Assembly (NCBI GenBank): GCA_963749705.1
Contig: CAVVNQ010000006.1
Coordinates: 32,001-96,000, forward strand
Direction of reading: 5' to 3'
Length of the DNA: 64,000 nucleotides
Source: an uncultured Chloroflexia bacterium
Lineage (GTDB): Bacteria > Chloroflexota > Limnocylindria > Limnocylindrales > CSP1-4
Program-made: the position numbers and the translations under genes
In this document: positions 8,293 to 25,655 of the stretch, in pieces
How the letters are laid out: each line of letters opens with the position of its first letter
How positions within the stretch are numbered: the first letter of the stretch is position 1
Notes under the pieces: model-generated
The model's database searches: none
Told to the model about the DNA's origin: nothing
Seen by the model: only the letters and a program-made list of their open reading frames with translations

Positions 8293-8575
8293 GATCACCA
8301 ATGACGACGTGACGTGCGACGACGTCCCTGAACACCGGCGCGGGTGTCAGGAACGACCCGGCAGCGGCGGCCAGCGGCTGCCATTGCCGGTTGCGATAGG
8401 CCTCCCAATCGTGCTCGCTCTCCCACACCTCGACGATCCGGTATCCCTCGTCGGTGGGACCGGCGACGTGCAGGAGCAGCCCCGGGGGGCGCATGGCGAT
8501 CCGTGCAGCCGCCGTCAGCTCGTAGTGCTCCCAGGTTGCACCGATGTCGTGGACGAACGCGTACACCATGCCCAT
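8138..8575 (-). CDS. Small ferredoxin-like/ABM-type (dimeric alpha-beta barrel) protein; 3' end uncertain
   Basis: PPGLLLHVAGPTDEGYRIVEVWESE motif; GGGAG RBS; open frame overlaps the SARP gene 3' end by ~155 bp. Confidence 0.7.
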   Translation of the reverse strand: MGMVYAFVHDIGATWEHYELTAAARIAMRPPGLLLHVAGPTDEGYRIVEVWESEHDWEAYRNRQWQPLAAAAGSFLTPAPVFRDVVARHVVIGDLRALSPPRRRGSARPPRTGKAAHPPRARRGSPADRLGSPQARTRAARATTR

Positions 8576-8622
8576 CTCCCGTTGTCTCGGCCAGCACCGC
8601 CGAGCGGAGCGTCCGGGTTGCG

Positions 8623-8693
8623 GGTAAAGGGGAGGTATAGCGACGCGGGCAGGCGGAGCTGGTGGCACGAGCCGGCTATACCGACGCTAAACC
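8623..8693. promoter_or_regulatory. Two oppositely oriented heptamer direct-repeat pairs (11-bp period), putative SARP boxes
   Basis: + strand CTATACC-N4-CTAAACC at 8676-8693; - strand CTATACC-N4-CTTTACC at 8640-8623. Confidence 0.6.
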
Positions 8694-8759
8694 CGCCTCC
8701 CGCAAGGTTCCGGCAGTGGTTCGTCCTGGTCGGACCGCAAGTCACACGGAGGCAGACGC

Positions 8760-9248
8760 ATGAAGCGGATCCTGGTCGTCCTCACGCTCGCAGCCATCGG
8801 CCTGAGCGTGGTTCCCACGGCAATGGCCACGACGCCGAGCAGCGTCAGGTTTGAGGTGTCGGTCGCGCTCAACGGCAACCTCACGGCATCGACCACCTCG
8901 GGCACGTTCGTGGCGTCGGGTGCGATCGCATCGAGCGGAACGGAGCAGGGCCATGGCTGGTTTGCCGGCCTGGGCCACCTCAAGACGGGTGATCCCAACT
9001 CGTTGCACGCGGCGATGACGCTGACCGATGGCAGCGGGTCGATCTCGCTCGATCTGGTCGGCCTGTTCGGTCAGCTGCCCGCCCCGATCGCGACCGGCGA
9101 GGGACGCTGGTTGATCACCGGCGGCACCGGGGCGTACGCGGGGATCCAGGGCGAAGGCTCGTGGTCCGGCACGGCCGACTTCCGGGCTGCCATCGCCGGC
9201 AACGGCCCGCCGATCGTCACGTTCGTCGAGCTGGGGCAGGTCCACTAG
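8760..9248 (+). CDS. Secreted beta-rich protein (dirigent/allene-oxide-cyclase barrel-like)
   Basis: Sec signal peptide (MKRILVV...AMA), W.ITGGTGAYAGIQGEG motif, GGAGG RBS. Confidence 0.75.
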   Translation: MKRILVVLTLAAIGLSVVPTAMATTPSSVRFEVSVALNGNLTASTTSGTFVASGAIASSGTEQGHGWFAGLGHLKTGDPNSLHAAMTLTDGSGSISLDLVGLFGQLPAPIATGEGRWLITGGTGAYAGIQGEGSWSGTADFRAAIAGNGPPIVTFVELGQVH

Positions 9249-9438
9249 CGGGGCGATCCACGTCGCCGCTGGCACCGGCCGAGCGCGCGCCATCGAAGCG
9301 GGTCAGGCGGGTTCCCGGACCATGAGGCGCCCGCCTGCATGCTGATCCTGCACACGACGCCTTCCGACCTCGCACGAGTCGGGAGGCGTCACGCCGTTCC
9401 GGATGACCCGACCCGGCCCGAACGTGGCGAACGACGTG

Positions 9439-10863
9439 TCATCGGGTCGTGGTCGCAGCGGTGCCCTCGCTGGCTGCCGGGCCTGGCCTGGCCGGCAGCT
9501 CGACCCGGAAGGCCGCGCCCCCCTCGGGACGGTTGGCAACGCCGATCCGGCCCTGGTGCCGGACAACGATCCAGTGGGCGATCGCGAGGCCGAGGCCCGT
9601 CCCGCCCGACGGCGCGCCGGGTGCCCGCCAGAACCTGTCGAACACGTGGGGCATGTCCTCGGGGCGGACGCCCGGCCCCTGGTCGGCCACCTCGACCGAC
9701 ACGATCGGGCCGGCGGCGCGCACCGTCACCCCCACCTCGCCACCGCGCGGGCTGTGGCGGACCGCGTTGTCGACCAGGATCATGACCAGCTGGCGGAGGC
9801 GCTCCGGATCGCCATCGACCATCGCCGGCTCCGGGTCCACGGTCACCTTGACGCCGCGAGCGTCGGCAGCGCGGCCGAGCGTCGACGCGGCATCGAACGC
9901 GATGTCGCCGAGGTCGAGCGGCTCCGACGCGAGCGCGACCGCGCCCGAATCCGACCGGGCGAGCAGCAGCAGGTCGTCGACGAGCGAGGCCATCCGGCTC
10001 ACCTCGGCATCGATGTCGTCGAGGGCCTCGCTGGACTCGCCGATCGGGCGATCCCGGTGCCGTGAGAGATGCTCCACCGACGAGCGGATCACGGTCAGCG
10101 GGGTCCGCAGCTCGTGGCTTGCGTCGGCCGCGAACTCGCGCTGGCGGCGCAGCGCGTCGCGCTGCGCGACCAGCGAGTCACGGATCGGGACCAGCGCGCG
10201 CCGCGCGTACACCGTCCCGAAGCCGAACGCGACCACCACCACCAGCACGCCGCCCACGAGCAGCACCGTGAGCAGCGCATTGAGGGTCTGCACCTCGGTG
10301 GTCCGGTCCTGGAGCACCTGGAGGAAGTAGGTGTTGCCGTCCTGCTGGGCGACGACCTTCCAGGTGAGGATCCGGATCGGCACCGTGGTCGACTCCCCGA
10401 CCGCCGTGCCGAGGGACAGGTTTGCGGTGCGCACGTCGCGGCCGTCGGCCGCGGTACGTGCGGCCGCCATGCCATCGTCCTCGGGCAGGCCGGTGGGCAC
10501 GACCACAGGCCCGCGGCCGACCTGGACGGGCGTGCCCGAATCGTCGAACGCGAACAGCAGGGTGTTGCCGCCACCGAACACGAACCCGAGCGTCGGCCGG
10601 TCCTGGTCGCCCGCGGACGGACCCTCGAGCGCGTCGACGAGCGGGCGTGCTCGATCCGAGAGCTGCTGGACCGAGGCGCCCGCCAGCGTGTTGGCAACGG
10701 CGGCGTAGAGCACGGCACCCAGCACGACGAGCACGACCAGCGTCGAGGCCCCGCTCCACGCCACGAGGCGCCAGCGGACGCGCCGGATGAGCCGCGCCTC
10801 CCCCGCCAGGGCGGCCTGCTCGGCACCGTCCTCGACGGGATCGATGCGGGTGCCGTCAGCCAC
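9439..10863 (-). CDS. Membrane sensor histidine kinase (MprB-like)
   Basis: Two TM helices, FAADASHELRTPL H-box, LVDNAVRH, DQGPG, GTGLGLAI. Confidence 0.95.
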   Translation of the reverse strand: MADGTRIDPVEDGAEQAALAGEARLIRRVRWRLVAWSGASTLVVLVVLGAVLYAAVANTLAGASVQQLSDRARPLVDALEGPSAGDQDRPTLGFVFGGGNTLLFAFDDSGTPVQVGRGPVVVPTGLPEDDGMAAARTAADGRDVRTANLSLGTAVGESTTVPIRILTWKVVAQQDGNTYFLQVLQDRTTEVQTLNALLTVLLVGGVLVVVVAFGFGTVYARRALVPIRDSLVAQRDALRRQREFAADASHELRTPLTVIRSSVEHLSRHRDRPIGESSEALDDIDAEVSRMASLVDDLLLLARSDSGAVALASEPLDLGDIAFDAASTLGRAADARGVKVTVDPEPAMVDGDPERLRQLVMILVDNAVRHSPRGGEVGVTVRAAGPIVSVEVADQGPGVRPEDMPHVFDRFWRAPGAPSGGTGLGLAIAHWIVVRHQGRIGVANRPEGGAAFRVELPARPGPAASEGTAATTTR

Positions 10864-13822: not shown

Positions 13823-14278
13823 TCAGCCGCCCGCCTTGTAGGGGTACGTCACCCACTCGTCGACGGTTGCCGCGTAGTGGTCCGGGCGGCCACCGACCCG
13901 CGACCGGCCGGGCTTGTAATGGATGACCGCCGAGGTCGCCACGCCGCCGGCGGCACGGACCCGGGACACCACCTCGGTCATCGTCTCGCCCGTCTCCCAC
14001 ACCTCGTCGACCACGAGGACCCGCTGGCCGGACAGCAGCTGCGACTCCGGAAAGTGCCCGATCCTCGGCGCCTCGTGGGTGCGACCGTCGGCGAGGTAGA
14101 ACTCGGCGCCGGCAACGAGGATCTCGCGCAGGCCCAGGCGATACGCGAGCATCCCCGCCGGCACGAGCCCGCCCCGGGTGATCGCGAGCACCAGGTCGTA
14201 GTCACCTCCCACACCCTCGGCAAGGCGCCCGACGAGCGCGTCGAGCGCCTCCCAGCTGACCACGAGCGTCTGCGGCAT
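13823..14278 (-). CDS. Type I phosphoribosyltransferase (xanthine/guanine PRT-like)
   Basis: AITRGGLVPA, VLVVDEVWETGET PRPP loop, WVTYPY. Confidence 0.9.
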   Translation of the reverse strand: MPQTLVVSWEALDALVGRLAEGVGGDYDLVLAITRGGLVPAGMLAYRLGLREILVAGAEFYLADGRTHEAPRIGHFPESQLLSGQRVLVVDEVWETGETMTEVVSRVRAAGGVATSAVIHYKPGRSRVGGRPDHYAATVDEWVTYPYKAGG

Positions 14279-14331
14279 GACCAGATCATCGCCTACCCGC
14301 CGTCGCCGCGTCGTCCGGGATGACCGGCGAC

Positions 14332-14394
14332 CGCGCGGCCTCAGCCGGTCGCGGTGTCCAGCGCGCGGCCTCAGCCGGTCGCGGTGTCCAGCGC
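14332..14394. repeat. 30-bp tandem duplication that includes the modB stop codon
   Basis: cgcgcggcctcagccggtcgcggtgtccag twice. Confidence 0.9.
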
Positions 14395-15213
14395 TCGTCC
14401 CCAGTGGAGCGCCCGGACCGCGAGCAGGACGCCGGCCGCGGCGAGCACCAGCACCGCGGCCGCGGCGATCGAGGCATCCAGGTCGCCGCCCTGGAACTCG
14501 CCATACACGAGCAGCGGCAGGGTCTGGGTCCGCCCCTCGACGTTGCCCGCGAACATGATCGTGGCGCCGAACTCGCCCAGCGCCCTGGCCCAGGCCATGA
14601 CCAGCCCCGCGGCGAGCGCGGGCGCGGCGAGCGGGACCGAGATCCAGCGGATGATGTCCGCCTCGGTCGCCCCGTCCACGCGCGCGGCATCCTCGACATC
14701 GCGGTCGACAGCCGCCAGCCCCGCGCGAGCGGACCGGATGAAGAACGGCGAGGCGACGAACACCTGGGCGATCACCACCGCCAGCGTGGTGAACGGGATG
14801 CTCAGGCCGAGCAGGTCCAGCGGTGCACCCAGGAGGCCCCGCCGGCCGAGCACGAGCAGCAGCGCAAGCCCCGCGACCGCCGGCGGCAGGACGATCGGCA
14901 GGTCGACCACGGTCTCCAGCAGCGCGGACCCCCGGAACCGGCGCCTGGCGAGGACGAACGCCAGGGGCATCCCGATCGCGATCGTGACTGCCAGGCTGCA
15001 TGCCGTGGTCCCCAGGCTCAGCACGAGCGCGTCGACGACGGCGGCGGAGCCGAGCATCGCCGCGAACGACCCGCCCGCGATCGCCCGCCCGACGAGCACG
15101 ACCACGGGCAGCGCGAGCAGCAGCCCGAGGACCCAGGCCACGGCGAGGGAGGCGCGACCGGCGCGCCGCGAGCCGCGCGCGGGCGATCCCCCGAGCGCCG
15201 GGATGGCGGTCAC
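14371..15213 (-). CDS. modB: Molybdate ABC transporter permease
   Basis: DLPIVLPPAVAG, EDAARVDGA, ARALGEFGATIMFAGN. Confidence 0.93.
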   Translation of the reverse strand: MTAIPALGGSPARGSRRAGRASLAVAWVLGLLLALPVVVLVGRAIAGGSFAAMLGSAAVVDALVLSLGTTACSLAVTIAIGMPLAFVLARRRFRGSALLETVVDLPIVLPPAVAGLALLLVLGRRGLLGAPLDLLGLSIPFTTLAVVIAQVFVASPFFIRSARAGLAAVDRDVEDAARVDGATEADIIRWISVPLAAPALAAGLVMAWARALGEFGATIMFAGNVEGRTQTLPLLVYGEFQGGDLDASIAAAAVLVLAAAGVLLAVRALHWGRALDTATG

Positions 15214-16073
15214 GGTGCCAGGAACCCGAACGGACGCAGGACCGCCTGCCCGGCCTCCCCGGCGACCCAGTCGAGGAAGTCGGCTGCCGCATCGACGCGA
15301 CCACCTCGGATCACGACCCCCGCGTACCGGGCACGCACCTGGGCCCCCGCCGGGATCGCGATCGAGCCGACCTTCGTGCTGCTGGCGGCATCCGTGGCAT
15401 AGACGAACCCGGCATCGCCTTCACCCAGCTCGACCTTCGCCAGGACGGCTGCCACGTTGTCCTCGCGACTCACCGTGTTCGCCTCGAGCGCCGCGACATA
15501 GCCCGGCGGGTACCCGGTGATCGAGCCGAGGTTGGCGATCACGCGGTCGGCATAGGTCGTGATCGGGACCCGGGCGCCCGCGGCGACCAGGCGGATGCCG
15601 GGGCGGGCGAGGTCGGCGGGCGTGGCGATCTCGGCGGGGTTGCCGGCCGGCACGACGAGCGCGACCGAGTTGCTCGCGAACGGGATCGGATCCCCGGCCG
15701 TGAGGCTCTCGTCGGCGAGGGCCTGCGGGTTCGCCTCGTCGGCGGACAGGAACACGTCGAACGGAGCGCCCTGCTCGACCTGGGTGCGCAGCGCTGCCGA
15801 CGATCCGGTGGCAACGGTGACCGTGGTCCCGGGATGCGCGGCGCTGTACGCGTCGCCGAGGGCGACGATCGCGGTCCGGAGCGAGGCAGCCGCTGCGACC
15901 CGAAGCTCGATCGAGGCGCCCGGCGACTGGGCGTCGCCCGATGCCGACGCCGGCGCGCATCCCGCCGGCACCCCGGCGGCGAGGAGCGCAAGGATGACGA
16001 TCCGGCTCGCGATCGCGCCCCGGCCGGCCGCGGTCACCCGGGCGGCCGCGGTCGCCTTGACGGCCGCGGTCAC
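15210..16073 (-). CDS. modA: Molybdate ABC transporter substrate-binding lipoprotein
   Basis: Lipobox PAGC, VAAAASL, GSSAALRTQVEQGAPFDVFLSA, DAGFVYATD. Confidence 0.93.
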   Translation of the reverse strand: MTAAVKATAAARVTAAGRGAIASRIVILALLAAGVPAGCAPASASGDAQSPGASIELRVAAAASLRTAIVALGDAYSAAHPGTTVTVATGSSAALRTQVEQGAPFDVFLSADEANPQALADESLTAGDPIPFASNSVALVVPAGNPAEIATPADLARPGIRLVAAGARVPITTYADRVIANLGSITGYPPGYVAALEANTVSREDNVAAVLAKVELGEGDAGFVYATDAASSTKVGSIAIPAGAQVRARYAGVVIRGGRVDAAADFLDWVAGEAGQAVLRPFGFLAP

Positions 16074-16501
16074 CCTCGGGTCTCGCGCCTCGACGCGACC
16101 TCCACCACGACATTGGTCGCCTTGACGACGCACACGGCATGGTCGCCGACCCGCAGCCCGAGCTCGTCGACCGCCTCCGCCGTCATCAGGCTGACCACCC
16201 GGTGCGGACCCGCCAGCACCTCGACCACGGCCGCCACCCGGTCCTTCTCCACCCGGGTGACGATGCCCTCGAACCGGTTGCGTGCCGATTGCGCGACGAC
16301 GGGCCGGTCCGCCGTCTCATTGCGTCGCTCGGCGAGCAGTCTCGTCACCTCGGCGACCGGTACCAGCCGCTGGCCGCCCGGTGATCGATCAACCTCCAGC
16401 CGGCCCTCCGCCTCCCAGCGCCGCAGCGTCTCGACGGTGACGCCGAGCATCTCCGCGGCGTGGCCGACCCGGAGCAGATGTGAGGACGACGATCCGGTCA
16501 T
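16070..16501 (-). CDS. MerR-type HTH plus TOBE molybdate-responsive regulator
   Basis: AAEMLGVTVETLRRWE, SARNRF, VVKATNV; leaderless TAGTAT -10 at 16508-16513. Confidence 0.92.
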   Translation of the reverse strand: MTGSSSSHLLRVGHAAEMLGVTVETLRRWEAEGRLEVDRSPGGQRLVPVAEVTRLLAERRNETADRPVVAQSARNRFEGIVTRVEKDRVAAVVEVLAGPHRVVSLMTAEAVDELGLRVGDHAVCVVKATNVVVEVASRRETRG

Positions 16502-16557
16502 CCCCAGATACTAGATCCAGAATCGCCGATTGAACAGCGGTATGACAGCCCTGGTAC

Positions 16558-17283
16558 CTAGGTCCCGTCGCCGGACTGCGTCGCGCCAGGGGCGGGCAGC
16601 GTCGGCGTCGCTCCGGCCCGGTCCATGTCATGGCACAGGACGCAGGTGTCGTCGGCGCGCAGCGCGTGGTCGATCGGGAGGGCCCCGACGTTCGACGCCT
16701 GGTGACACGACCGGCAGGTCAGGTTCGGGTTGTTGGGGTGCGGCTCCTGGGGTGGCTTCTCGGCGGCCGGCTTGTGACACAGCCAGCAGTCATCCTGGTT
16801 GCGCCCGACCATGCTCGACGGCAGGTGCGCCACGCTCCCGTGGCAGTCCAGGCATGGCCGGTCGAGCTCCGAGTGCGCCTGCGTGATCGCCGGCCCCGGC
16901 TGCGCCACCGTGTGGCAGTTGAGGCACTCCGACTGGGCGATGCCTTCGTGACCCGGCGCCTTGCGACCCAGGTCCTCGTTGGTGTGGCACACCAGGCAGG
17001 CCTGCCAGCCGTCCAGCGGATGACCCAGGGCCGGGATCGGCTTGAGACCGCCTTCACCGCCCTTGTCGTGACACAGGAGGCAGTCGCTCGAGGTCGGGAT
17101 GTGGGCGAGCCCCATCTGCATCAGGTCGGCGGACGGCGCCGCGGACGCGCTCGGGCTCGGCTGGGCGTCGAAGTCAGGCAGGATCTGGAGCCATCCGGCA
17201 ACCATGATGCTCGCGAGCGCGGCCACGACGAGAAAGTTCGCCACGATCAGGGCACGCAGCCCCCGGTCGAGCCCGGTCCTCAT
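16558..17283 (-). CDS. Membrane-anchored 7-heme c-type cytochrome
   Basis: N-terminal TM helix; seven CxxCH (CLLCH, CLVCH, CLNCH, CLDCH, CWLCH, CRSCH, CVLCH); ATGA overlap with the protease gene. Confidence 0.92.
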   Translation of the reverse strand: MRTGLDRGLRALIVANFLVVAALASIMVAGWLQILPDFDAQPSPSASAAPSADLMQMGLAHIPTSSDCLLCHDKGGEGGLKPIPALGHPLDGWQACLVCHTNEDLGRKAPGHEGIAQSECLNCHTVAQPGPAITQAHSELDRPCLDCHGSVAHLPSSMVGRNQDDCWLCHKPAAEKPPQEPHPNNPNLTCRSCHQASNVGALPIDHALRADDTCVLCHDMDRAGATPTLPAPGATQSGDGT

Positions 17284-17849
17284 GACGCCGCTCCTGCCAG
17301 CTCCGCCGGCCGTGATGACAACCTCGATGCGAGGGCCACGGCGTGGGCCGTTCGACGGACGGCTTCGACCGCCGCCGGCAGCGCCGCGACGACCCCGCGC
17401 GACAGGCCGGGCCCGACATCGATCGCGCCCGCCTGGACACCCACCAGGACGACCTCCGGCGGCAGGATCGCGAGCAGCTTCGCGGTCGCGAGGAGCTCGC
17501 CGACCCCGCCCTGGCGGGACAGGGCCCGGAACCCGCCTGCGGCGGTCAGCCGCTCGCCGCGCACCACGGTGACGGTTCCCGGTGCATGGCCGAGGTCGAC
17601 GGCGTCGACCAGCACCAGCGCCCCTGCGTGCTCCACGTCGGGCAGCAGGTCGAGCCCGAGCGTGCCGCCGTCGAGCAGTCGGGTGCCGGGGGGCAGCGCG
17701 CCGGGATCGTGCTCGGCCGACCGGCCCAGCGCCTCGACCACGCGCACCCCGACACCATCGTCGCCCAGCAGCACGTTGCCCACGCCGATGACCACCACCG
17801 GGCGGTCGTCGATGCGGTCCGGCGTGCCCGGGCCGTCGTCGCGGGTCAT
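17280..17849 (-). CDS. hyaD: Hydrogenase maturation endopeptidase (HyaD/HybD family)
   Basis: VIGVGNVLLGDDGVG, DGGTLG, VDAV. Confidence 0.93.
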   Translation of the reverse strand: MTRDDGPGTPDRIDDRPVVVIGVGNVLLGDDGVGVRVVEALGRSAEHDPGALPPGTRLLDGGTLGLDLLPDVEHAGALVLVDAVDLGHAPGTVTVVRGERLTAAGGFRALSRQGGVGELLATAKLLAILPPEVVLVGVQAGAIDVGPGLSRGVVAALPAAVEAVRRTAHAVALASRLSSRPAELAGAAS

Positions 17850-18682
17850 TCCACGCGCTCCAGGAGCTCTTCGCCGCCGTCACGCGACTCGACGACCTCT
17901 TCCCGGGTCGGGAACTTGTAGCCGCTGAAGATGCTCGACATCAGGCCGTTCTTCTCGATGTGATCGACCAGCACGCAGCTGTACACGTGGAACAGGGCGA
18001 TGGCGAGGATCGCCCACATCGCGAGGTGGTGGACCAGGCGCAGCAGCTGCGGACCCATCAGCTCGCGCAGCCAGCCGAACAGCGTCGCGCCGGGCTCCGA
18101 GCCCATCAGGCCATCGAGGGCAAACCCGGTCACGGTCTCGACCAGGAGGAGCGCGAACAACGCGACGTACGCGGTGGCAGCCAGCTGGTTGTGGCCGAGG
18201 ACCTTGGGGATCTCCTTGCGGATGAAGCCGTAGAACCCGGCCTGTCGGAACAGCTCCATCGCCTGGTAGCGCGAGGTCGGGATGAACGCCGACCAGCGCG
18301 CGAACCGGTTGCCCGCCAGCAGCCACCAGGTTCGGAGCAGGCCCGAGACGAGGAACGTGAACGCGGCAAGGATGTGGATCAAGCGGATCGTGGTCATCAC
18401 GCCCCCGCCCGGCGCGATCAGGAACGGATCTGCGATGTAGCCACCGGTCAGGCTGAGCACCACGATGCAGCCGGCGGTCAGCCAGTGCGTGAGCCGTACC
18501 GGCACCTGCCACACGTACAGCCGGACGCGCTCGTCCGGCCGGTCGATCGCATGGGCGAGGTCCCCGGCGGCCGACGGCGCCTCCGACTGGGCGGGCCGAG
18601 GCGCGGGAGACGGGACCGGCAGGACGGGCGGCGTCGGCCGAACCTCGACGCGACCCGGCAACGGCTTCTGGATGGTCGTCAT
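17846..18682 (-). CDS. hyaC: Ni/Fe-hydrogenase b-type cytochrome subunit
   Basis: YVWQVPVRLTHW, RLIH, GHNQLA, RLVHHL, FHVY, SSIFSGYK. Confidence 0.95.
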   Translation of the reverse strand: MTTIQKPLPGRVEVRPTPPVLPVPSPAPRPAQSEAPSAAGDLAHAIDRPDERVRLYVWQVPVRLTHWLTAGCIVVLSLTGGYIADPFLIAPGGGVMTTIRLIHILAAFTFLVSGLLRTWWLLAGNRFARWSAFIPTSRYQAMELFRQAGFYGFIRKEIPKVLGHNQLAATAYVALFALLLVETVTGFALDGLMGSEPGATLFGWLRELMGPQLLRLVHHLAMWAILAIALFHVYSCVLVDHIEKNGLMSSIFSGYKFPTREEVVESRDGGEELLERVE

Positions 18683-20451
18683 CGGGCGGGCTCCGTACGG
18701 TTGACGCAGATCTCGATCGGGCCGCCGGCCCGCGGATCGAAGGCGTGGACCGCGCAGGCCACGCATGGATCGAACGAGTGGACCGTGCGCAGGATCTCGA
18801 GCGGCTGGCCCGGGTCGGCGACGCGGGTGCCCACCAGCGCCTGCTCGAGCGGGCCGCGGGTTCCGGTGTCATCGCGCGGGGAGGCGTTCCACGTGGTCGC
18901 GTCGACGATCTGGTAGTCGCCGATGACGCCGTCGTGGATCGAGACCCAGTGGCCCACGGCGCCCCGCGGCCCCTCGCCCAGCGACGAGCCCTCCGCCGAC
19001 GCCGGCCACGAGCCCGGATCCCACGATCCCCCATCGACCAGGGCGAGATCGCCGCTGGCGAAGTTGTCCTGCAGGTCGATCAGCCAGGCGCCGGCCTGTT
19101 TCGCCATGACCTTTGTCTCGACCGTCCTGGCGAGCATCCGACCGAGCGTGCTGAACAGCTCGGCCGGCTCCAACCCCAGCGTGGTCAGCGCCGTGTTCAT
19201 CGCGGCCCGGACGTCGATCTGGCCGTCGGCGTAGGCGACCGCCATCCGCGCCAGCGGGCCAACCTCCATCGGCTGCCCGTTGTAGCGCGGGGCCTTGAGC
19301 CAGCTGTACCTGGCCGCTCCCTCGAGCGAGGTCAGCGGAAGCGCAGGCCCGGAGTACGCAGGATCCGTTCGCCCGTTGACCGGTCGACGCGGTTCGCCAC
19401 TGTCGTCGTCCGCGTACCACGAGGCGGCCACGGATTCTGCAACCGAGCTCGCGTTCATCTCCGACAGCGACGCCAGGTTGCCCCCGAGGATCCGGCCCCT
19501 CGGCAGGTACAGCTTGCCGGTCTCGACGGCGGCACCCGGATAGTCGCCGAACGCCAGGTAGCTGCCCGACCCGACGCCGGTCTTGCCCCAGTCCGGATAC
19601 GCCTCCGCAAGCCGGAGCATGTCCGGCATCGCGACCCACGAGATGAACGTCTGGGCCTTGCTGATCAGATCGTTGATCAGGGTGAGTCCCGCGTCGCTCA
19701 GCGCCGACGGCGTGTTGCGGTCCGGCAGCTGGGGATGCTCGCCGGCGCGCCGGGCGGGCGGCCCGCCCCAGGGCGGCGTGAGCGAGACGCCGCCGACGAG
19801 ATACGACTGCGGATGCGGATCGCGACCGCCCAGCAGCGTGTGGATGCGCATGAAGTCGCGCTGCCAGTCGAGCGCCTCGATCGCATGTGCCAGCAGGACC
19901 AGGCTCAGCTCCGGCGACAGCCGGTAGCCCGGGTGACCCGCGAACGACGCCCCGAACGGGCCAGCCTGCCCGGACGAGGTCGACGCGGCAAGCCGGTCAC
20001 GGACACCGGCGAAGTACGACGGGCTGGACTTCGGCCAGTCGCTCATCGAGCGTGCAAGCGCCGAGGCTGCCTCGGGGTCCGCGCCCAGCGCGACCGTCGT
20101 GTCGGCCCAGTCCGGGAGCTGGGCGAGGTAGAACCGGACGATGTGGTCGCGAACCGCGAGCGTGGCCGCGAGGATGTTGCGCACCAGCCGGGCGTTGTCC
20201 GGGATCGTGATGCCCAGCGCGTCCTCCACCGCCCGCACCGATGCCAGGGCGTGGACACCCGTGCAGGTGCCGCACACGCGGTCGGCGATCATCCAGGCAT
20301 CCCTGGGATCCCGTCCCCGGAGGACCAGCTCAAGGCCCCGGAACATGGTCCCGGCGCTCCACGCATCGCGGACCTCGCCGCCGACGACGTCAGCCTCGAT
20401 CCGCAGGTGGCCGCCGACGCGGGTGACCGGGTCGATGGCGATGCGGGCCAT
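18679..20451 (-). CDS. hyaB: Group 1 [NiFe]-hydrogenase large subunit (divergent)
   Basis: RVCGTCTGVH and SFDPCVACAVH, RGLE, YSWLKAPRY, EVGPLAR, PRG, 21-aa C-terminal extension. Confidence 0.95.
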   Translation of the reverse strand: MARIAIDPVTRVGGHLRIEADVVGGEVRDAWSAGTMFRGLELVLRGRDPRDAWMIADRVCGTCTGVHALASVRAVEDALGITIPDNARLVRNILAATLAVRDHIVRFYLAQLPDWADTTVALGADPEAASALARSMSDWPKSSPSYFAGVRDRLAASTSSGQAGPFGASFAGHPGYRLSPELSLVLLAHAIEALDWQRDFMRIHTLLGGRDPHPQSYLVGGVSLTPPWGGPPARRAGEHPQLPDRNTPSALSDAGLTLINDLISKAQTFISWVAMPDMLRLAEAYPDWGKTGVGSGSYLAFGDYPGAAVETGKLYLPRGRILGGNLASLSEMNASSVAESVAASWYADDDSGEPRRPVNGRTDPAYSGPALPLTSLEGAARYSWLKAPRYNGQPMEVGPLARMAVAYADGQIDVRAAMNTALTTLGLEPAELFSTLGRMLARTVETKVMAKQAGAWLIDLQDNFASGDLALVDGGSWDPGSWPASAEGSSLGEGPRGAVGHWVSIHDGVIGDYQIVDATTWNASPRDDTGTRGPLEQALVGTRVADPGQPLEILRTVHSFDPCVACAVHAFDPRAGGPIEICVNRTEPAR

Positions 20452-20452
20452 G

Positions 20453-21739
20453 TCAGCGCACCCCCGGATCGTCGCCGGCAGGCGGGGCGGGTCGCTCGTC
20501 CATCGGGACATCGGTCGATGCGGCGTGCTCAGGTGCGCTCGCGGCGGACGCGCCGGGCCCCGCGGCCTCGGGCGGCGGCGTGATGGTCGTGCCGGTCGAT
20601 GGCGGGACGGCGACCGGCGTCGCCTCGGCGGCGGCAGCGGCGGCAGCCGCTTCCGCGGCTCGTCTCTCCGCTCGCGCGCCGAGACGCGTGCGCGCGTACA
20701 TCCCGACACCGTGGGCGGCCGCCACGGCGCCGATGCCGCCGACGAGCGCCGTGCCGACCCCGTCCGCGGTCACGTTGGGGAAGAACGGCACGGGCGACGG
20801 GAGGCGCCGGTAGAACGGGCTCATCGCGTCCCAGAAGTCCGGCATCGTGCACCCGATGCAGCCGTGGCCGGCGTGGATCGGCCAGCTCGTGCCCTGGGCG
20901 AACCGCTGGGTCGCGCAGTTGCCGAACGACTCGGGTCCCTTGCAGCCCATCTTGTACAGGCACCAGCCCTTCTGGGCACCCTCGTCGCCCCACGCCTGCA
21001 CGAACTCGCCGAACTCGAAGTGCGGCCGGCGCTCGCACTCGTTGTGGATCAATGGGCCGTAGGCGAACAGCGGTCGACCCCGTCCGTCGGTCGCCGGCCA
21101 CTCGCCGAGGGTCAGGTAGTGGACGATCGTCGCGGCCAGGTTGTCGACGTTGAGCGGACAGCCCGGGAGCGCGATGTAGGCGCCGCCGCCCGACGTGATC
21201 TCGCGCACGCCGCGGGCGTCCGTGATGCCGCCGCCCGCGCCCGGAGCCCCACCGTCGAACGCACAGGCGCCGACGGCGATCGTGGCCAGCGCCCCGTCGC
21301 ACACCTCGCGCACGATGTCGGCGAACGGACGCCCGCCCACCATGCAGTACGCGCCGCCGGCCCCGGTCGGGATCGATCCCTCGACCACGGCCAGGTAGCC
21401 GTTCGGGAAGCGGTCCATCGCGTTGGTGCGCGCCAGCTCGGCGGCGGCACCCGACGGAGCCATCAGCGTCTCGTGGTACTCGACGGACAACAGGTCGAGC
21501 AGGAGCGATGCTGCCGTCGGGTCGGCCGCGCGGAGGAACGCCTCCGTCTCGCCGCCACAGTCCTGGCCGCGCAGCCAGATCACGGGCAGGCGCGGCGCGT
21601 TGGCGACGGCCTCCGCGATCCGGGGCGCGTACGTGGCCGGCAGCGCGAGGGCAGCCGCCATCGCGGTCGAGAACTTGAGGAATGAGCGCCGGGTCATCCC
21701 ACGCCGGACCAGCGCGGCGTAGAGCCCGTCGTCAATCAT
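20453..21739 (-). CDS. hyaA: Group 1 [NiFe]-hydrogenase small subunit, Tat-exported and membrane-anchored
   Basis: TRRSFLK, YHETLM, GAC, PGCP, HNEC, CLYKMGCKGP, WP..AGHGCIGC, C-terminal TM helix with His. Confidence 0.95.
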   Translation of the reverse strand: MIDDGLYAALVRRGMTRRSFLKFSTAMAAALALPATYAPRIAEAVANAPRLPVIWLRGQDCGGETEAFLRAADPTAASLLLDLLSVEYHETLMAPSGAAAELARTNAMDRFPNGYLAVVEGSIPTGAGGAYCMVGGRPFADIVREVCDGALATIAVGACAFDGGAPGAGGGITDARGVREITSGGGAYIALPGCPLNVDNLAATIVHYLTLGEWPATDGRGRPLFAYGPLIHNECERRPHFEFGEFVQAWGDEGAQKGWCLYKMGCKGPESFGNCATQRFAQGTSWPIHAGHGCIGCTMPDFWDAMSPFYRRLPSPVPFFPNVTADGVGTALVGGIGAVAAAHGVGMYARTRLGARAERRAAEAAAAAAAAEATPVAVPPSTGTTITPPPEAAGPGASAASAPEHAASTDVPMDERPAPPAGDDPGVR

Positions 21740-22267
21740 CACGTCAAACTCGCTCGTTCGCCGTGGCGGGCGGGTGCCGGAGGCCCCACATCGGCCACAG
21801 CATGATCACGGGACGCCGGTACCGATGATGGAAGACACGGGGCCCGGATGGGCGTGCCACTGGTCGCCGTCCGGCCCTGCCAAGGGCATGGTTCGAAGGC
21901 CCGGATGGCCACGGGCGGCGGGTCGGACGGCAGGGTCCGGCCCGACGCCGGGGGTTCGCGACACGATCCCCGGGGGTTTCAAAAGCGTGACGATTTGCGG
22001 CTCCTGGTCGGCGGCCGGCCGGGCGAGCCAGCCGAGCGAGCCAGCCGCCTGCCGATCGGGGCGAGCAACCCGCAGGAGCGCCCGGGCTCGCCCGTCACCC
22101 GCGGCGGGCCGTGTTTCGCGCGGTCCGCAGGGGGACGGGTGCCGCGCCTGCCGCGTCCATGCAAGGTCGCCCCATCGCCATGGTCGTCGTCGCGGGGCTA
22201 GCATCCACGGACAACCGACCGCGTCCCCGCGGCCAGTCCACCATCGGCGAAATGGAGGAGGGCACTC

Positions 22268-25200
22268 ATGCCGAACGCGCGGCTTGCCCACAGGCGCGCG
22301 GCGATTCTCGCCGTCGCGGCAGCTCTGGTAGCGGGATCGGCAGGTGCGGCCCTGCCCACTCCGGCCGCTGCCGCATCACCCGACGTCGTCATCAGCCAGG
22401 TCTACGGCGGTGGCGGCAACAGCGGCGCCACGTACACCAACGACTTCGTGGAGCTGTTCAACCGCGGGACCTCGACGGTCTCCGTGGACGGCTGGTCCGT
22501 GCAGTACACGTCGGCGACGGGGACCGGCAACTTCGGTGCCAACACCGGCCAGATCACCCCGCTCGCCGGCTCGATCGCGCCCGGCCAGTACCTCCTCGTC
22601 CAGGAGGCCCAGGGGTCCGGTGGGACGACCTCGCTCCCGACACCCGACGTCACCGACGCGACGGCGATCAACATGTCCGGCAGCTCGGGCAAGGTCGCGC
22701 TTGTCAACACGGACGCGTCGCTCGGCTGCAACGGCGGCAGCAATCCCTGCGACGCGTCGCAGCTCGCCCAGATCGTCGACCTCGTCGGCTGGGGCAGCGC
22801 GAACTTCTTCGAGGGCTCGGCCGCCGCACCGGGAACCTCGAACACCACCGCCGTCCTGCGCGCGAGCGGCGGCTGCACCGACACCGATGACAACAGCGCC
22901 GACTTCACGGCGGACGCCCCGACGCCGCGCAGCTCGGCCTCGCCGCTTCACAGCTGCACGGGTCCGACGGACCCGAGCGGCGTCGGCACCGCGACGCCGA
23001 ACAGCCTGTTCGCCGGCAATTCGACGCTGCTGACGGTCGATGTGACGCCGGGCGCGAACCCGGCCAGCACCGGCCTGGCCGTCACCTGCGACCTGACCGC
23101 GATCGGCGGCTCCGCGACCCAGTCGCTGGTCGACGACGGCACCGGTGGTGACGCTGTGGCCGGCGATCTGACGTTCTCGTTCGAGGCTTCGCTCGCCAAT
23201 GACACGGCCGGCGGGGAGCTCAGCCTCCCGTGCACGGTCACCGACGCCCAGTCGCGCACCGGCAGCGCGACGATCGCGATCACGGTCCTGGAGATCCTTC
23301 CGATCGGGACCGTCAATGGTCCGGTCCTGAACGGCGACAGCGGGACCGCGCACGTGTCGCCATACGCCGGAAAGACCGTGACCGTCCAGGGCGTGATCTA
23401 CGAGAACACCCTGCAGGCGATCAGCAACTCCTCGAACACCTACAAGGGCTTCTTTCTCCAGAACACCGCCGCGACGGCCGACGGCGACGCGACGACGTCC
23501 GACGGGCTGTTCGCGTTCATGGGCACGTTCGGCGACATCTTCGACTCGAGCGGCGGCTTCTACGTTCCCCAGGTCGGTGACGAGGTCGTCGTGTCGGGCC
23601 GTGTCAGCGAGTACTACAACATGACCGAGCTTGGCAGCCTGCGGCTGATCAAGGTCGTGCGCCAGCGACGTTTCCATCGACGCCGAGATCCCGGCCGCGG
23701 TCGCGAACCCACCGGTCTCGCTCGCCGACGCCAACCGCTACTGGGAGCGCCTCCAGGGCAGCCGGGTGCAGGTCCCCGCGGGCAGCATCGTGCTCGGCGG
23801 CCGCAACGTGTTCAACCCGGCCGATGCCGAGATCTGGGTCGCACGATCCGACAGCACGATCGCGCAGCGCCCCAAGCTCTACTGGCGCCGCGCCTTCCGC
23901 GACGCCCATCCGCTCGATGACAACTACGACCCGACCAGCTGGGACGGCAACGGGTACCGGATCCTGATGGGCAGCCTGGGTATCAAGGCGGCCGAGGCCG
24001 ACGGCCAGGCGCTGATCGACCCGGCTCGGACGTTCGACACGCTCACCAGCGCGCCGTCCGGCGGGCTCAACTACACCTTCGGCAAGTACCGGGTCGAGAT
24101 CACCGAGCAGCCCGTGCTCAGTGAGGGCGTCGACCCATCGGCCGACAACCCGCCGCAGGCCTTCGATCGAAGCCTGCGCTACAGCATCGCCGACTACAAC
24201 CTCGAGAACCTGTACGACTACCGCGACGACCCGTTCTCCGGCTGCGACTTCACCGGTGACAGCGGGTGCCCCAAGGTCTACCCGTTCCTCGGACCGGTGA
24301 GCGCGCCGTTTGACTACGTGCCGGCCAGCGACGCCGCGTACCAGGCGCGGCTGGGCGACATCGCGCACCAGGTCATCACCGACCTCCACAGCCCGGACAT
24401 CCTGATGGTCCAGGAGGTGGAGAACCAGGACATCTGCACCGTGGCTGCGGGCGCGCTCGCCTGCGGCACGACCAACAACGCGGACGGCAAGCCCGACGTG
24501 CTCCAGGAGCTCGCGCTCCGGATCAGTGCCATGGGCGGCCCCGCCTACGATGCCGCGTTCGACCGCGACAGCTCGGACCTGCGGGGCATCGCGCCGGCGT
24601 TCCTCTACCGCACCGACCGGGTCGAGCTCCTGCCACCGGCGGGTGACCCGGTCCTGGGCGCCGACCCCGCGATCGGCGGCTTCACGTCGGTCCCGTACGA
24701 CGCAGACGTGTCCAACCCCAAGACCCTCAACGCCGAGCTGCCGGCCGGTGTCTCCGCGTGCGAGACCGCGTGGGTCTTCCCGCGCGCGCCCGGCGTCGCC
24801 CTGTTCCGGATCCACGGCACCGGGCTCGACGCCGATCTCCACCAGGACGTGTACGTGGTCAACAACCACTTCAAGAGCGGGCCGGACTCGTGCGTCGACC
24901 ACCGCACCGAGCAGGCCAGCTACAACGCGGCGCTGGTGGCCTTCCTCGAGCATGCCAACCCGAACGCCCGGGTCGTCGTCGGCGGCGACCTGAACGTCTA
25001 TCCGCGACCGGACGACCCGTTCGCGCCCATCGGACAGGCCGGCTCGAGCGACCAGCTCGGCGCCCTCTACGACCCGGGTCTCGGGCTGAAGAACCTGTGG
25101 GAGGTCCTGCTCGGCCAGGCCCCCGCGTCCGCCTACTCCTACGTCTACCAGGGGATGGCGCAGACCCTCGACCAGATGTTCGTGACCCCCGCGATGCTCG

Positions 25201-25655
25201 CGAACCTCGACCAGTTCCGCATCGCCCACATCAACAGCGACTTCCCCGCCGACTACACGGGCGACGTCGCGCGCGGAACCAGCGACCATGATCCGGGCGT
25301 CGCCACATTCGTGGTCCCGTTCCCGTTCAGCGGGTTCGGACCTCCGGTCGAGCCCGCGCCGGCGTTCAACGTCGCCAAGGCGGGCCGGACCGTGCCCGTG
25401 AAGTTCAGCCTCGGCGGCGACCGAGGGCCGGACATCTTCGCCAGCGGGCCGACGGCGACGCCGATCTCGTGCGCGGATGGAACGCCGACCGGCGCCGCCG
25501 TGGCCGCAATGGGCAGCCTCCGGTATGACCGGGTCGCCGACCAGTACGTCTACACGTGGAGGACCGACAGGTCATGGGCCGGCACCTGTGAACAGCTGAG
25601 CTTCACGCTCGTCGACGGGACGTCGCACGAGGCCTGGTTCGACTTCCGGAAATAG
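22268..25655 (+). pseudogene. Extracellular ExeM/NucH-like nuclease (lamin-tail, OB-fold, EEP and PxKF domains), split by a +1 frameshift near 23660
   Basis: Signal peptide, VVISQVYGGGGN, NLENL, VQEVEN, NNHFKS, GDLN, TLDQ, SDHDP, VPVKF; coding sense continues in the next frame (SDVSIDAEIPAAV...). Confidence 0.8.

What the first reader, a model, noticed from the sequence alone, without database searches (positions are those of the whole stretch)
16558..21739. Candidate new system: divergent membrane-bound [NiFe]-hydrogenase operon wired to a 7-heme cytochrome c
Seen: five tightly coupled genes (small, large, cytochrome b, protease, heptaheme cytochrome) with intact frames, a Tat signal, all four Ni-Fe Cys and the PRG Arg. 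Normally conserved functional residues are changed in three of the proteins (see the separate findings), and no hyp genes are in the window. Known: group 1 enzymes usually pass electrons through cytochrome b to quinone. Inference: the coordinated changes plus a second extracytoplasmic electron conduit suggest a repurposed enzyme (different proton path, bias or substrate, or an electron-relay role) rather than random decay.
Basis: partly seen in the sequence, partly recalled or inferred. Interest (0 to 1): 0.8.

Follow-up and report, generated by a model that had tools for sequence, protein, structure and literature searches.

The report
Glutamate-less hydrogenase operon with heptaheme cytochrome
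A soil and sediment Chloroflexota lineage carries a conserved, apparently expressed membrane hydrogenase that has lost the glutamate regarded as the universal proton gate of these enzymes and has gained a seven-heme cytochrome partner, so it is a natural test case for how such enzymes move protons and electrons.

Summary
Window 16558-21739 (minus strand) holds five translationally coupled genes: a Tat-signal small subunit, a large subunit, cytochrome b, a maturation protease and a membrane-anchored 7xCxxCH cytochrome.

Against E. coli Hyd-1 and Hyd-2, the large subunit has Gly for the proton-gate Glu. The small subunit has Glu for one proximal-cluster Cys. The protease lacks the HybD His93 equivalent.

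This is not decay. It marks one of three operon types in a Limnocylindrales family. In 27 'type A' loci the Glu loss, V78T, A507G, L512V, V530D, the protease His loss and the heptaheme gene go together. In 14 canonical paralogous loci (types B and C) none of them occurs.

dN/dS is 0.10-0.24 for four genes and 0.19-0.49 for the protease. Type A branches from within Glu-bearing paralogues (quick tree). The Arg-Asp-His-Glu alternative proton route is intact in 27 of 27. Sediment metatranscriptome contigs cover pieces of all five genes.

The small-subunit change is a known group 1f trait (PMC5364354). hypFCDE lies elsewhere in the genome.

Verdict: a real, apparently undescribed variant of a known enzyme class. 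Its activity is untested.

The parts
20453..21739 (-). [NiFe]-hydrogenase small subunit. It has a Tat signal (RRSFLK), three Fe-S cluster sites, a C-terminal membrane helix and an Ala/Pro-rich tail. The second proximal-cluster Cys is replaced by Glu50 (numbering of P0001, which starts at 21697).
   Evidence: The ATG at 21739 gives an N-region like that of E. coli HyaA (alignment, sequence).
18679..20451 (-). [NiFe]-hydrogenase large subunit, 590 aa. It keeps all four Ni-Fe Cys and the PRG Arg. It has Gly13 for the proton-gate Glu, Thr62 for Hyd-1 V78, Val499 for L512, Asp517 for V530 and Ala518 for P531. A 21-residue C-terminal extension follows the final His.
17846..18682 (-). Ni/Fe-hydrogenase b-type cytochrome subunit. 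The likely start is Met29 of the longest ORF, which forms an ATGA overlap with the large-subunit stop. The longest ORF starts at 18766. The four His that align with HyaC His residues are invariant.
17280..17849 (-). HyaD/HybD-family maturation endopeptidase homologue. It has Arg112 at the HybD His93 position and Asp31 at the Glu16 position. It is the least constrained of the five genes.
16558..17283 (-). Membrane-anchored heptaheme c-type cytochrome, 241 aa. It has one N-terminal helix and seven CxxCH motifs. Six further His are conserved across all 26 aligned sequences (five invariant, one nearly so); a seventh, in the AHIP stretch, is kept only in the orthologues and not in the three paralogues.

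Best explanation
The locus encodes a lineage-specific derivative ('type A') of a group-1f-like, Tat-exported, membrane-bound uptake [NiFe]-hydrogenase of a Limnocylindrales (Chloroflexota) family.

Shown:
- Type A arose from within Glu-bearing paralogues of the same family (types B and C).
- It then fixed a package of changes around the active site. The proton-gate Glu and four of the five His of the His-rich motif were lost. The canopy Asp of DPCxxC was mostly lost. V78T, A507G, L512V, V530D and P531G/A were fixed.
- The protease lost its metal-ligand His.
- A membrane-anchored heptaheme cytochrome c was recruited. Its paralogues sit elsewhere in multiheme-NrfC-NrfD modules.
- All parts remain under purifying selection.
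- The catalytic subunit now evolves faster than its electron-transfer partners.

Inferred mechanism:
- The enzyme still binds Ni-Fe(CO)(CN)2 and oxidises H2 on the outer face of the membrane.
- Protons leave through the conserved Arg496-Asp102-His103-Glu445 route, and/or through water in the cavity left by Gly13, instead of through the Glu gate.
- Electrons pass down the three Fe-S clusters to dihaem cytochrome b and so to quinone.
- Electrons also pass through the heptaheme cytochrome to an extracytoplasmic acceptor or a c-type respiratory partner.
For: Gene identities.

Clade-wide loss of the Glu:
- 0 of 119 homologues with an N-terminus (56-97% identity) have Glu in the motif.
- 0 of 27 type A loci have Glu (G 19, N 5, S 2, D 1), against 14 of 14 B/C loci and 2 of 2 E. 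coli enzymes.

Co-occurrence:
- The heptaheme gene is full-length in 26 of 27 type A loci (one locus is deleted) and in 0 of 14 B/C loci.
- The protease has His at the H93 column in 0 of 25 type A loci.
- V78T, A507G, L512V and V530D are fixed in 27 of 27.

Retained catalytic core:
- C76, C79, R509, D118, H119, the Glu436(Av) equivalent and H229 are kept in 27 of 27.
- C576 and C579 are kept in 26 of 27.

Selection:
- dN/dS is 0.13-0.18 for the small subunit, 0.17-0.24 for the large subunit, 0.12-0.22 for cytochrome b and 0.10-0.17 for the heptaheme gene.

Phylogeny and context:
- On the quick tree, type A is monophyletic (SH-aLRT 96). Its sister is an unnamed Glu-less protein. Next out come type B (99) and type C.
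- An alternative Arg-Asp-His-Glu route was tested by mutagenesis in T. roseopersicina, where Glu14Gln had a 'less pronounced' effect (PMC3325256, passages).
- hypFCDE, ResB and CcsA are present in the genome.
- Metatranscriptome contigs at 95-100% identity cover pieces of all five genes. They bridge the cytochrome b/large and large/small junctions. The RNA runs show almost nothing in the outer flanks.
Against: - No activity, metal-content or spectroscopic data exist.
- The Glu is described as essential or 'universal' (PMC8020662, passages). Its loss, together with loss of the canopy Asp in 23 of 27 loci, could mean very slow or no H2 turnover.
- The large subunit accumulates about 3-8 times more amino-acid change than the canonical paralogue in the same genome pairs. 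It is less conserved than its own partner subunits. This fits relaxed demands on catalysis.
- hypA and hypB were not found in this genome, which is 88% complete.
- The RNA evidence is contigs from one study and could include DNA carry-over.
- The tree is the quick version. The careful search did not finish.
- The claim that L512, V530 and P531 line the Fe-ligand pocket is recalled from D. vulgaris Miyazaki F structures. It was not confirmed by any search (one search found nothing).
Confidence: 0.6

Rival explanations
1. The complex is no longer mainly an H2-oxidising enzyme. With the proton gate gone, it turns over slowly or hardly at all. It would then serve as an H2 sensor or redox poise device, or as an Fe-S/haem electron relay between the quinone pool and the outside, with the Ni-Fe subunit kept mainly as a scaffold.
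For: - The Glu gate is lost in 27 of 27 loci and the canopy Asp is not Asp in 23 of 27.
- Within type A, the large subunit is the least conserved of the three subunits compared (identity 0.50-0.73, against 0.57-0.80 for the small subunit and 0.67-0.82 for cytochrome b; the heptaheme gene was not compared there). In the canonical paralogues the large subunit stays at 0.79-0.98.
- The protease is degenerating. Its dN/dS is up to 0.49. It is absent from L138 and frameshifted in L105.
- Putatively sensory [FeFe]-hydrogenases that lack proton-path residues were found in a search (listing and abstracts only).
Against: - All four Ni-Fe Cys, the Arg, Asp118 and His119 are kept across the clade, with dN/dS of about 0.2. 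This conservation is hard to explain for a mere scaffold.
- Known H2 sensors are cytoplasmic and lack a Tat signal, a membrane anchor and cytochrome b (recalled).
- No regulator gene is linked. The flanks are housekeeping genes.
Confidence: 0.22
2. It is an ordinary group 1f uptake hydrogenase. The substitutions are neutral lineage drift without functional consequence, and the heptaheme gene is only a co-transcribed neighbour.
For: - The operon order small-large-cytochrome b-protease matches the canonical paralogues.
- Cys to Asn/Asp in the small subunit is a known 1f trait (PMC5364354).
- In T. roseopersicina the Glu is less critical (PMC3325256).
- A few other Glu-less sequences occur in unrelated branches.
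Against: - The package is fixed in 27 of 27 type A loci and absent from 14 of 14 paralogous loci, often within the same genomes.
- The heptaheme gene has co-segregated with it down to 51% large-subunit identity, with dN/dS of 0.10-0.17.
- Drift does not give invariant V78T, L512V and V530D.
Confidence: 0.13
3. The operon is decaying, a pseudogene cluster in the making.
For: Single broken copies exist:
- L104 (G003) has a deletion from the large-subunit C-terminus into the heptaheme gene.
- G028 has TGA stops in its match.
- L105 has a frameshifted protease.
Against: - The frames are intact here and in most relatives.
- dN/dS is well below 1.
- The functional residues are invariant.
- RNA contigs cover the operon.
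Confidence: 0.03

Closest known systems
E. coli hydrogenase-1 (HyaABCD; group 1d) and hydrogenase-2 (HybOC, HybD)
   Same: - The small, large, cytochrome b and protease families are the same and, for Hyd-1, in the same order.
- It shares the Tat signal, the four Ni-Fe Cys, the PRG Arg, Asp118/His119 and the medial and distal cluster ligands.
- Identity is about 40% for the small subunit and 31-38% for cytochrome b and the protease.
- The E. coli large subunits align over nearly their whole length.
   Different: - There is no six-Cys proximal cluster.
- The Glu28, V78, L512, V530 and P531 equivalents are changed, and D574 is changed in most of the clade.
- The protease His93 equivalent is lost.
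- A heptaheme gene is added, and there are no hyaE/F-like genes.
Group 1f [NiFe]-hydrogenases (Roseiflexus, Geobacter, Frankia; as described in PMC5364354 and PMC6776052)
   Same: - The proximal-cluster Cys is replaced by a non-Cys residue.
- The group occurs in Chloroflexota, including the class formerly called Ellin6529. The equation of Ellin6529 with Limnocylindria is recalled.
- The sister operons, types B and C, carry Asn at that site and are otherwise canonical.
   Different: - In type A the residue is Glu in this sub-clade and Asn, Asp or Ser in the rest.
- Type A also lacks the Glu gate and has the heptaheme gene.
- Placement against named 1f references could not be tested.
Allochromatium vinosum membrane-bound [NiFe]-hydrogenase (PDB 3MYR)
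   Same: It is the best solved-structure match for the large subunit (E 8.7e-155, aligned over residues 3-569). The Arg487-Asp103-His104-Glu436 chain described for it is conserved here.
   Different: It has the canonical Glu and other canonical residues (alignment). It has no heptaheme partner in the entry.
Proton-gate variants made in the laboratory (E. coli Hyd-1 E28Q; D. fructosovorans Glu to Gln; T. roseopersicina Glu14Gln)
   Same: The same position is altered. These variants show what loss of the carboxylate does (PMC8020662, PMC3325256; passages).
   Different: Here the change is natural and clade-wide. It is a change to Gly, Asn or Ser, and it comes with further fixed second-shell changes.
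Desulfovibrio periplasmic hydrogenases with cytochrome c3 / high-molecular-weight cytochrome c (Hmc, PDB 1H29)
   Same: A periplasmic [NiFe]-hydrogenase hands electrons to multihaem c-type cytochromes (recalled). Hmc is the best solved match for the heptaheme profile (E 4.7e-5 over about 167 residues).
   Different: The similarity is very weak. Here the cytochrome is membrane-anchored, has seven haems, is encoded in the operon, and coexists with a cytochrome b subunit.

Membership tests
Group 1 membrane-bound uptake [NiFe]-hydrogenase | Large subunit of family PF00374 with the two CxxC pairs that bind Ni-Fe | tested here: met
   PF00374 E 6.4e-176. C76 and C79 equivalents are kept in 27 of 27 loci, C576 and C579 in 26 of 27.
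Group 1 membrane-bound uptake [NiFe]-hydrogenase | Small subunit with a Tat signal and a C-terminal membrane anchor | tested here: met
   TAT_signal and TIGR01409 both match; TIGR00391 scores 382.7 bits. A hydrophobic stretch follows the last Cys motif.
Group 1 membrane-bound uptake [NiFe]-hydrogenase | Conserved Glu of the N-terminal RxEGH motif (proton gate) | tested here: not met
   Gly13 here. Glu is present in 0 of 27 type A loci.
Group 1 membrane-bound uptake [NiFe]-hydrogenase | Four Cys ligands of the proximal [4Fe-4S] cluster | tested here: not met
   The second Cys of the N-terminal pair is Glu50. Relatives have Asn, Asp or Ser there.
Group 1 membrane-bound uptake [NiFe]-hydrogenase | b-type cytochrome subunit with four haem-ligand His | tested here: met
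   TIGR02125 scores 130.7 bits, above the cut-off of 121.5. H94, H131, H246 and H260 are invariant. Their role as haem ligands is recalled.
HydDB group 1f | Proximal-cluster Cys replaced by Asn or Asp | tested here: inconclusive
   The same position is replaced, but by Glu here; most relatives and types B and C have Asn. The criterion comes from a passage of PMC5364354.
HydDB group 1f | Phylogenetic grouping with named 1f reference sequences / HydDB classifier | not testable with these tools
   No named 1f reference sequence or classifier was available. The tree only places type A next to types B and C and near the E. coli Hyd-1 clade.
Group 1d O2-tolerant hydrogenase | Two extra Cys at the proximal cluster (six-Cys motif) | tested here: not met
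   The alignment with HyaA shows Gly and Glu where HyaA has the extra Cys and the ligand Cys, and Asp-Gly-Gly where HyaA has Trp-Gly-Cys.
HyaD/HybD maturation endopeptidase | Family match plus the metal-binding triad (Glu16, Asp62, His93 of HybD; triad recalled) | tested here: not met
   The family is matched (TIGR00072, 117 bits). Asp31 stands for Glu16 and Asp82 is kept. His93 is Arg112 here and is His in 0 of 25 type A loci.
H2-sensing regulatory hydrogenase (group 2b) | Cytoplasmic, with no Tat signal, no membrane anchor and no C-terminal extension; linked to a kinase/regulator (recalled) | tested here: not met
   A Tat signal, a membrane anchor, cytochrome b and a C-terminal extension are all present. 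The flanks are housekeeping genes.

The most novel reading that the evidence does not exclude
A whole bacterial family maintains an active, exported [NiFe]-hydrogenase that works without the 'universal' glutamate proton gate. It would use the Arg-Asp-His-Glu route and/or a newly fixed Asp (V530D) beside the Fe ligands. It would deliver electrons not only to quinone but also to a dedicated membrane-anchored heptaheme wire on the cell surface. This would be a natural redesign of both the proton path and the electron exit of the enzyme.
Probability: 0.4. Interest if true: 0.8.

Novelty: new variant of a known kind. Interest (0 to 1): 0.66.

Why it matters
The Glu next to the terminal Ni-Cys is treated as the universal first proton acceptor of [NiFe]-hydrogenases, and the competing proton routes are still debated. 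Here nature supplies dozens of orthologues that dropped the gate but kept the alternative Arg-Asp-His-Glu chain. Several of the genomes also carry canonical paralogues, which makes a built-in comparison set.

If the enzyme is active, it shows which route suffices and what the fixed second-shell changes (V78T, L512V, V530D, loss of the canopy Asp) do to bias, affinity and O2 response.

The obligate heptaheme partner also suggests a route by which soil and sediment Chloroflexota could couple H2 to extracytoplasmic acceptors. Metagenomic surveys that count such genes simply as uptake hydrogenases may be misreading their function.

Tried and rejected
- The search for related loci with the single protein returned only two close loci. 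The other 78 were enterobacterial, Aeromonas, Haemophilus and similar canonical enzymes.
- The AlphaFold2 model of the heptaheme cytochrome was poor (mean pLDDT 59; only the N-terminal helix was confident). No fold search was run on it.
- Complex prediction with small subunit, cytochrome b and heptaheme gave no verdict (score 0.00; controls not run). It is neither support nor evidence against binding.
- The consensus promoter and terminator scan of 16000-22400 found nothing.
- Literature searches found no paper describing a Glu-less group 1 clade, or a hydrogenase-heptaheme operon in Chloroflexota. This holds only for the library searched.
- One search found no open text confirming the recalled roles of the D. 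vulgaris Leu482/Val500/Pro501 equivalents.
- A Pfam family, PF27537, is precomputed for type B proteins but for almost no type A protein. It is not in the local Pfam copy, so it could not be identified.
- The careful tree search did not finish, so only the quick tree is reported.
- The cytochrome b dN values for the canonical paralogues are partly artefacts (values near 3 or -1) and were not used.
- RNA runs show little or no depth in parts of the operon. With contigs this proves nothing.
- hypA and hypB were not found in an 88% complete genome. This is not evidence of absence.


Full report
**What is there**

The window is 70-74% G+C. On the minus strand, between 16558 and 21739, lie five genes.

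- A small subunit with Pfam TAT_signal, Oxidored_q6 and NiFe_hyd_SSU_C, and TIGR00391 at 382.7 bits.
- A large subunit (PF00374, E 6.4e-176).
- A b-type cytochrome (TIGR02125 at 130.7 bits, above its cut-off of 121.5).
- A HyaD/HybD-family endopeptidase (TIGR00072, 117 bits).
- A 241-residue protein with weak multihaem-cytochrome matches.

The coordinates give three ATGA overlaps: large/cytochrome b at Met29 of the longest ORF, cytochrome b/protease, and protease/cytochrome c. The small and large genes are separated by a 1-nt spacer. The small subunit most likely starts at the ATG at 21739, which gives an N-region like that of E. coli HyaA.

The last protein has one confident N-terminal helix at residues 2-34 and seven CxxCH motifs. 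Six further His are conserved across all 26 aligned sequences (five invariant, one nearly so). A seventh, in the AHIP stretch, is kept only in the orthologues. This would allow bis-His ligation of most or all seven haems.

**The residue changes**

I aligned the proteins with solved structures and with E. coli K-12 Hyd-1 and Hyd-2 (loci L085 and L086).

- The large subunit has Gly where the RxEGH motif has Glu.
- The small subunit reads C-G-G-E where HyaA and HybO have the C-x-x-C pair of the proximal cluster. All other cluster ligands are kept.
- The protease has Arg112 where HyaD and HybD have the conserved His, and Asp31 for the Glu. That these are the metal ligands of HybD is recalled, not tested.
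- Cytochrome b keeps every His that aligns with HyaC.

**Not unique to this genome**

The 120 best homologues out of about 5.8 billion proteins are 56-97% identical. None of the 119 with an N-terminus has Glu in the motif. Most read RxGGH, and others have Asn, Asp or Ser at that position or Gln for the His. Sources name them only 'nickel-dependent hydrogenase large subunit' of Candidatus Limnocylindrales or Chloroflexota MAGs.

In whole genomes, 31 of 36 genomes of the same genus-level group have a homologue at E <= 1e-50, and many have two. I fetched 40 such loci and the two close loci. One of the 40 duplicates a locus. I did not fetch G004, G017:C74, G028, G036, G014:C27, G026:C3 or G021:C130.

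**Three operon types**

tblastn with the five window proteins, followed by a read-out of motif columns, separates three types.

- **Type A.** This comprises the window plus 26 distinct loci used for counting, with large subunits 51-89% identical, plus the 95%-identical L006. The gene order is small, large, cytochrome b, protease, heptaheme.
- **Type B.** Four loci, 53-54% identical.
- **Type C.** Ten loci, 48-49% identical.

Types B and C have small, large, cytochrome b and protease genes, the canonical RIEGH and CGVC motifs and the protease His. They have no heptaheme gene. In the tree and context they are paralogues of type A, and several genomes hold A together with B or C.

All three types have a non-Cys residue at the small-subunit site. 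Types B and C have Asn there. Most type A loci have Asn, while the window's own sub-clade has Glu and a few loci have Asp or Ser. A passage of PMC5364354 says that group 1f enzymes of Roseiflexus, Geobacter and Frankia have Asn or Asp at this Cys. This change is therefore a known trait, not part of what is special here.

**The type A package**

Column counts compare 27 type A, 14 B/C and 2 E. coli large subunits. Hyd-1 numbers are taken from the alignment offset.

| Position (Hyd-1) | Type A (27 loci) | Types B/C and E. coli |
|---|---|---|
| E28 | G 19, N 5, S 2, D 1 | Glu in all |
| V78 | Thr, 27 of 27 | Val |
| A507 | Gly, 27 of 27 | Ala |
| L512 | Val, 27 of 27 | Leu |
| V530 | Asp, 27 of 27 | Val |
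| P531 | Gly or Ala, 27 of 27 | Pro |
| D574 (DPCxxC) | Asp in only 4 of 27 | Asp |

Four of the five His of the HxHxxHxxHxH motif are also lost.

Type A keeps the following:
- C76, C79, R509, D118, H119, H229 and the equivalent of A. vinosum Glu436, each in 27 of 27.
- C576 and C579, in 26 of 27. The exception is L104, whose large subunit loses its C-terminus to the internal deletion described under Degeneration at the margins.

D118, R509 and D574 are the 'canopy' residues. The Hyd-2 equivalents are named in PMC5902676, and E28, D118 and R509 are highlighted in PMC8020662.

I recall, but could not confirm from any call, that the D. vulgaris Miyazaki F equivalents of L512 and V530 line the pocket of the Fe-bound CO, and that P531/T532 contact a CN ligand. 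If so, the pocket of the diatomic ligands is remodelled.

In the protease, His is absent from the H93 column in 25 of 25 type A sequences, and Glu16 is Asp in 25 of 25.

**Selection and rates**

Pairwise dN/dS (NG86) among the four closest type A loci:

| Gene | dN/dS |
|---|---|
| Small subunit | 0.13-0.18 |
| Large subunit | 0.17-0.24 |
| Cytochrome b | 0.12-0.22 |
| Heptaheme cytochrome | 0.10-0.17 (leaving out the frameshifted L006 copy, which gives 0.48) |
| Protease | 0.19-0.49 |

This is purifying selection, weakest on the protease.

In genome pairs that hold both A and a canonical paralogue, the type A large subunit has about 3-8 times the dN of the paralogue. For G025-G027, dN/dS is 0.030/0.17 for type A against 0.010/0.11 for the paralogue. 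For G008-G016 it is 0.087/0.54 against 0.024/0.32.

Within type A, the large subunit (identity 0.50-0.73) is less conserved than the small subunit (0.57-0.80) and cytochrome b (0.67-0.82). In the canonical operons the large subunit stays at 0.79-0.98. Constraint on the catalytic subunit is thus relaxed relative to its electron-transfer partners, but it is far from lost.

**Origin**

I searched 1.84 billion representative proteins and built a quick maximum-likelihood tree of 62 rows. The rows were:
- 10 of the 27 type A loci.
- All 4 type B loci.
- 3 of the 10 type C loci.
- The 2 E. coli enzymes.
- 43 of the 150 representatives, namely those of 480-660 aa with both Cys motifs.

The tree gives the following:
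- Type A is monophyletic (SH-aLRT 96).
- Its sister is an unnamed Glu-less protein, P0127, which also has Asp at the V530 column (95).
- Next out is type B (99), then type C (88), then the clade holding E. coli Hyd-1.
- Type A tips are several times longer than B or C tips.
- A few other Glu-less sequences sit in unrelated branches, so the loss has happened more than once but is rare.

The careful tree search did not finish.

**The heptaheme cytochrome**

In 401 genomes drawn across the phylum, matches at E <= 1e-10 occur in 13. High-identity orthologues (58-72%) occur only in the window's family: 8 of 23 sampled genomes plus the window's own. The two I fetched (L138, L139) sit in type A operons.

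Paralogues at 38-45% identity are not beside hydrogenases. In the window's own genome, one paralogue is the last gene of a multihaem cytochrome, 4Fe-4S protein, NrfD-like membrane protein and multihaem cytochrome module. The partner was therefore recruited from a family of membrane-anchored cytochromes that serve quinone-linked modules.

Its best solved relative is the Desulfovibrio high-molecular-weight cytochrome c, but only at E 4.7e-5.

**Genome context**

- The genome is 3.6 Mb in 22 contigs and 88% complete.
- It has hypF-hypC-hypD-hypE on contig 7 and ResB plus CcsA for cytochrome c maturation.
- It has two haem-copper oxidases and a cytosolic group-3b-like hydrogenase.
- No canonical group 1 paralogue was found, and no hypA or hypB.
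- The operon's flanks are housekeeping genes, and the neighbourhood is conserved across relatives.

**Expression**

Contigs from three sediment metatranscriptome runs of one study match at 95-100%. They cover pieces of all five genes, and pieces of run X1 bridge the cytochrome b/large and large/small junctions. In the outer flanks (15800-16020, 16242-16462, 21988-22400) the RNA runs have no depth, whereas a DNA run covers part of the downstream flank. This is a weak hint of transcription from a single study, and DNA carry-over is not excluded.

**Degeneration at the margins**

- In L138 (G312) the type A large subunit ends at the final His, with no C-terminal extension, and there is no protease gene. 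Cytochrome b is followed directly by the heptaheme gene.
- L105 has a frameshifted protease.
- L104 has an internal deletion.

The protease thus looks dispensable when the extension is gone. This fits its relaxed dN/dS.

**Mechanism**

*Shown:*
- An exported, membrane-anchored Ni-Fe-type enzyme core with all metal ligands.
- A conserved electron chain of three cluster sites, dihaem cytochrome b and a heptaheme cytochrome.
- Loss of the canonical gate.
- Conservation of the Arg-Asp-His-Glu chain. Mutagenesis in T. roseopersicina implicated this chain as an alternative proton route, and Glu14Gln had a less pronounced effect there (PMC3325256, passages).

*Inferred:*
- H2 is oxidised outside the membrane.
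- Protons leave by that chain and/or by water in the Gly cavity. Hyd-1 E28Q is rescued when water or hydroxide enters near the carboxamide (PMC8020662, passages).
- Electrons go to quinone and to an extracytoplasmic acceptor through the heptaheme cytochrome.

The main rival is that catalysis has become slow or secondary (a relay or sensor role). The faster evolution of the catalytic subunit favours this rival. The invariance of the metal ligands and of the Arg favours the main reading.

**Comparison and novelty**

The operon works like, and descends from, group 1 uptake hydrogenases of the 1f kind. It fails two usual defining residues (the Glu gate and a four-Cys proximal cluster), and its protease fails the His. 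I found no paper describing a Glu-less group 1 clade or this hydrogenase-heptaheme operon. Supplementary tables were closed and may list it under group 1f.

I rate it a new variant of a known kind, real and conserved, with activity unknown.

Noticed in passing
own genome G000, contig 7 (locus L127 5433-10498) and genome-wide: hypF, hypC, hypD and hypE are clustered. The Pfam HypA model found nothing in the genome. The TIGR00073 HypB model gave only a 19-bit hit, below its cut-off. The genome is 88% complete. In the same-genus sample, HypA passes its cut-off in 27 of 41 genomes. The window's closest relatives (G020, G009, G034, G005) are among those without it.
   Followed up: partly
relatives, e.g. 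G010:C3, G029:C1, G032:C5, G014:C1, G016:C17, G024:C3, G031:C5: Where HypA is present, it often lies about 37-57 kb from the type A operon on the same contig. This is conserved long-range synteny rather than an operon.
   Followed up: no
own genome G000 contig 4, locus L128 8499-12776 (minus strand): A second hydrogenase of cytosolic group-3b-like make-up. It has a Fer4_22/NAD-binding/DHODB Fe-S subunit, a small subunit and a large subunit, with a cNMP-binding regulator gene next to it.
   Followed up: partly
own genome G000 contig 7, locus L140 9106-12958 (minus strand): A module of multihaem cytochrome c, 4Fe-4S protein, NrfD-like membrane protein and multihaem cytochrome c. Its last gene is a 37-39% paralogue of the operon's heptaheme cytochrome. 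A LuxR-type response regulator lies upstream.
   Followed up: partly
L138 (G312:C1) 5691-10168: A type A operon with no protease gene. Its large subunit ends at the final His, so it has no C-terminal extension.
   Followed up: partly
L104 (G003), L105 (G031), G028:C22:84027-85755, L006 (G020): Broken or doubtful copies. L104 has a deletion from the large-subunit C-terminus into the heptaheme gene. L105 has a protease split over three frames. G028 has two TGA inside its match. L006 has apparent frameshifts in the large and heptaheme genes. These may be assembly errors.
   Followed up: no
L109 (G026) and L090 (G007): Open frames run through gene borders. L109 has large subunit plus cytochrome b in one 857-aa frame. 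L090 has small plus large subunit in one 1029-aa frame. These are natural fusions or sequencing errors.
   Followed up: no
type A loci, C-termini of small and large subunits: The cytoplasmic low-complexity tail of the small subunit and the C-terminal extension of the large subunit both usually end in Glu-x-Arg or Glu-x-x-Arg. Types B and C end differently. The meaning is unknown.
   Followed up: no
window 15210-16501 (minus strand): A molybdate-type periplasmic binding protein gene and a MerR-HTH plus TOBE-domain regulator gene sit directly downstream of the heptaheme gene. In most relatives the gene next to the heptaheme gene is instead the homologue of window 13823-15304, a protein with a phosphoribosyltransferase domain.
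   Followed up: partly
window 22268-25655 (plus strand): Upstream and divergent lie a secreted Lamin-tail-domain protein and a protein of the endonuclease/exonuclease/phosphatase family. They are shared only with the closest relative, L005.
   Followed up: no
representative proteins P0168, P0170, P0205, P0210, P0216, P0240, P0254: Other [NiFe] large subunits without the motif Glu occur in unrelated parts of the tree or list. They suggest rare independent losses in other lineages.
   Followed up: no
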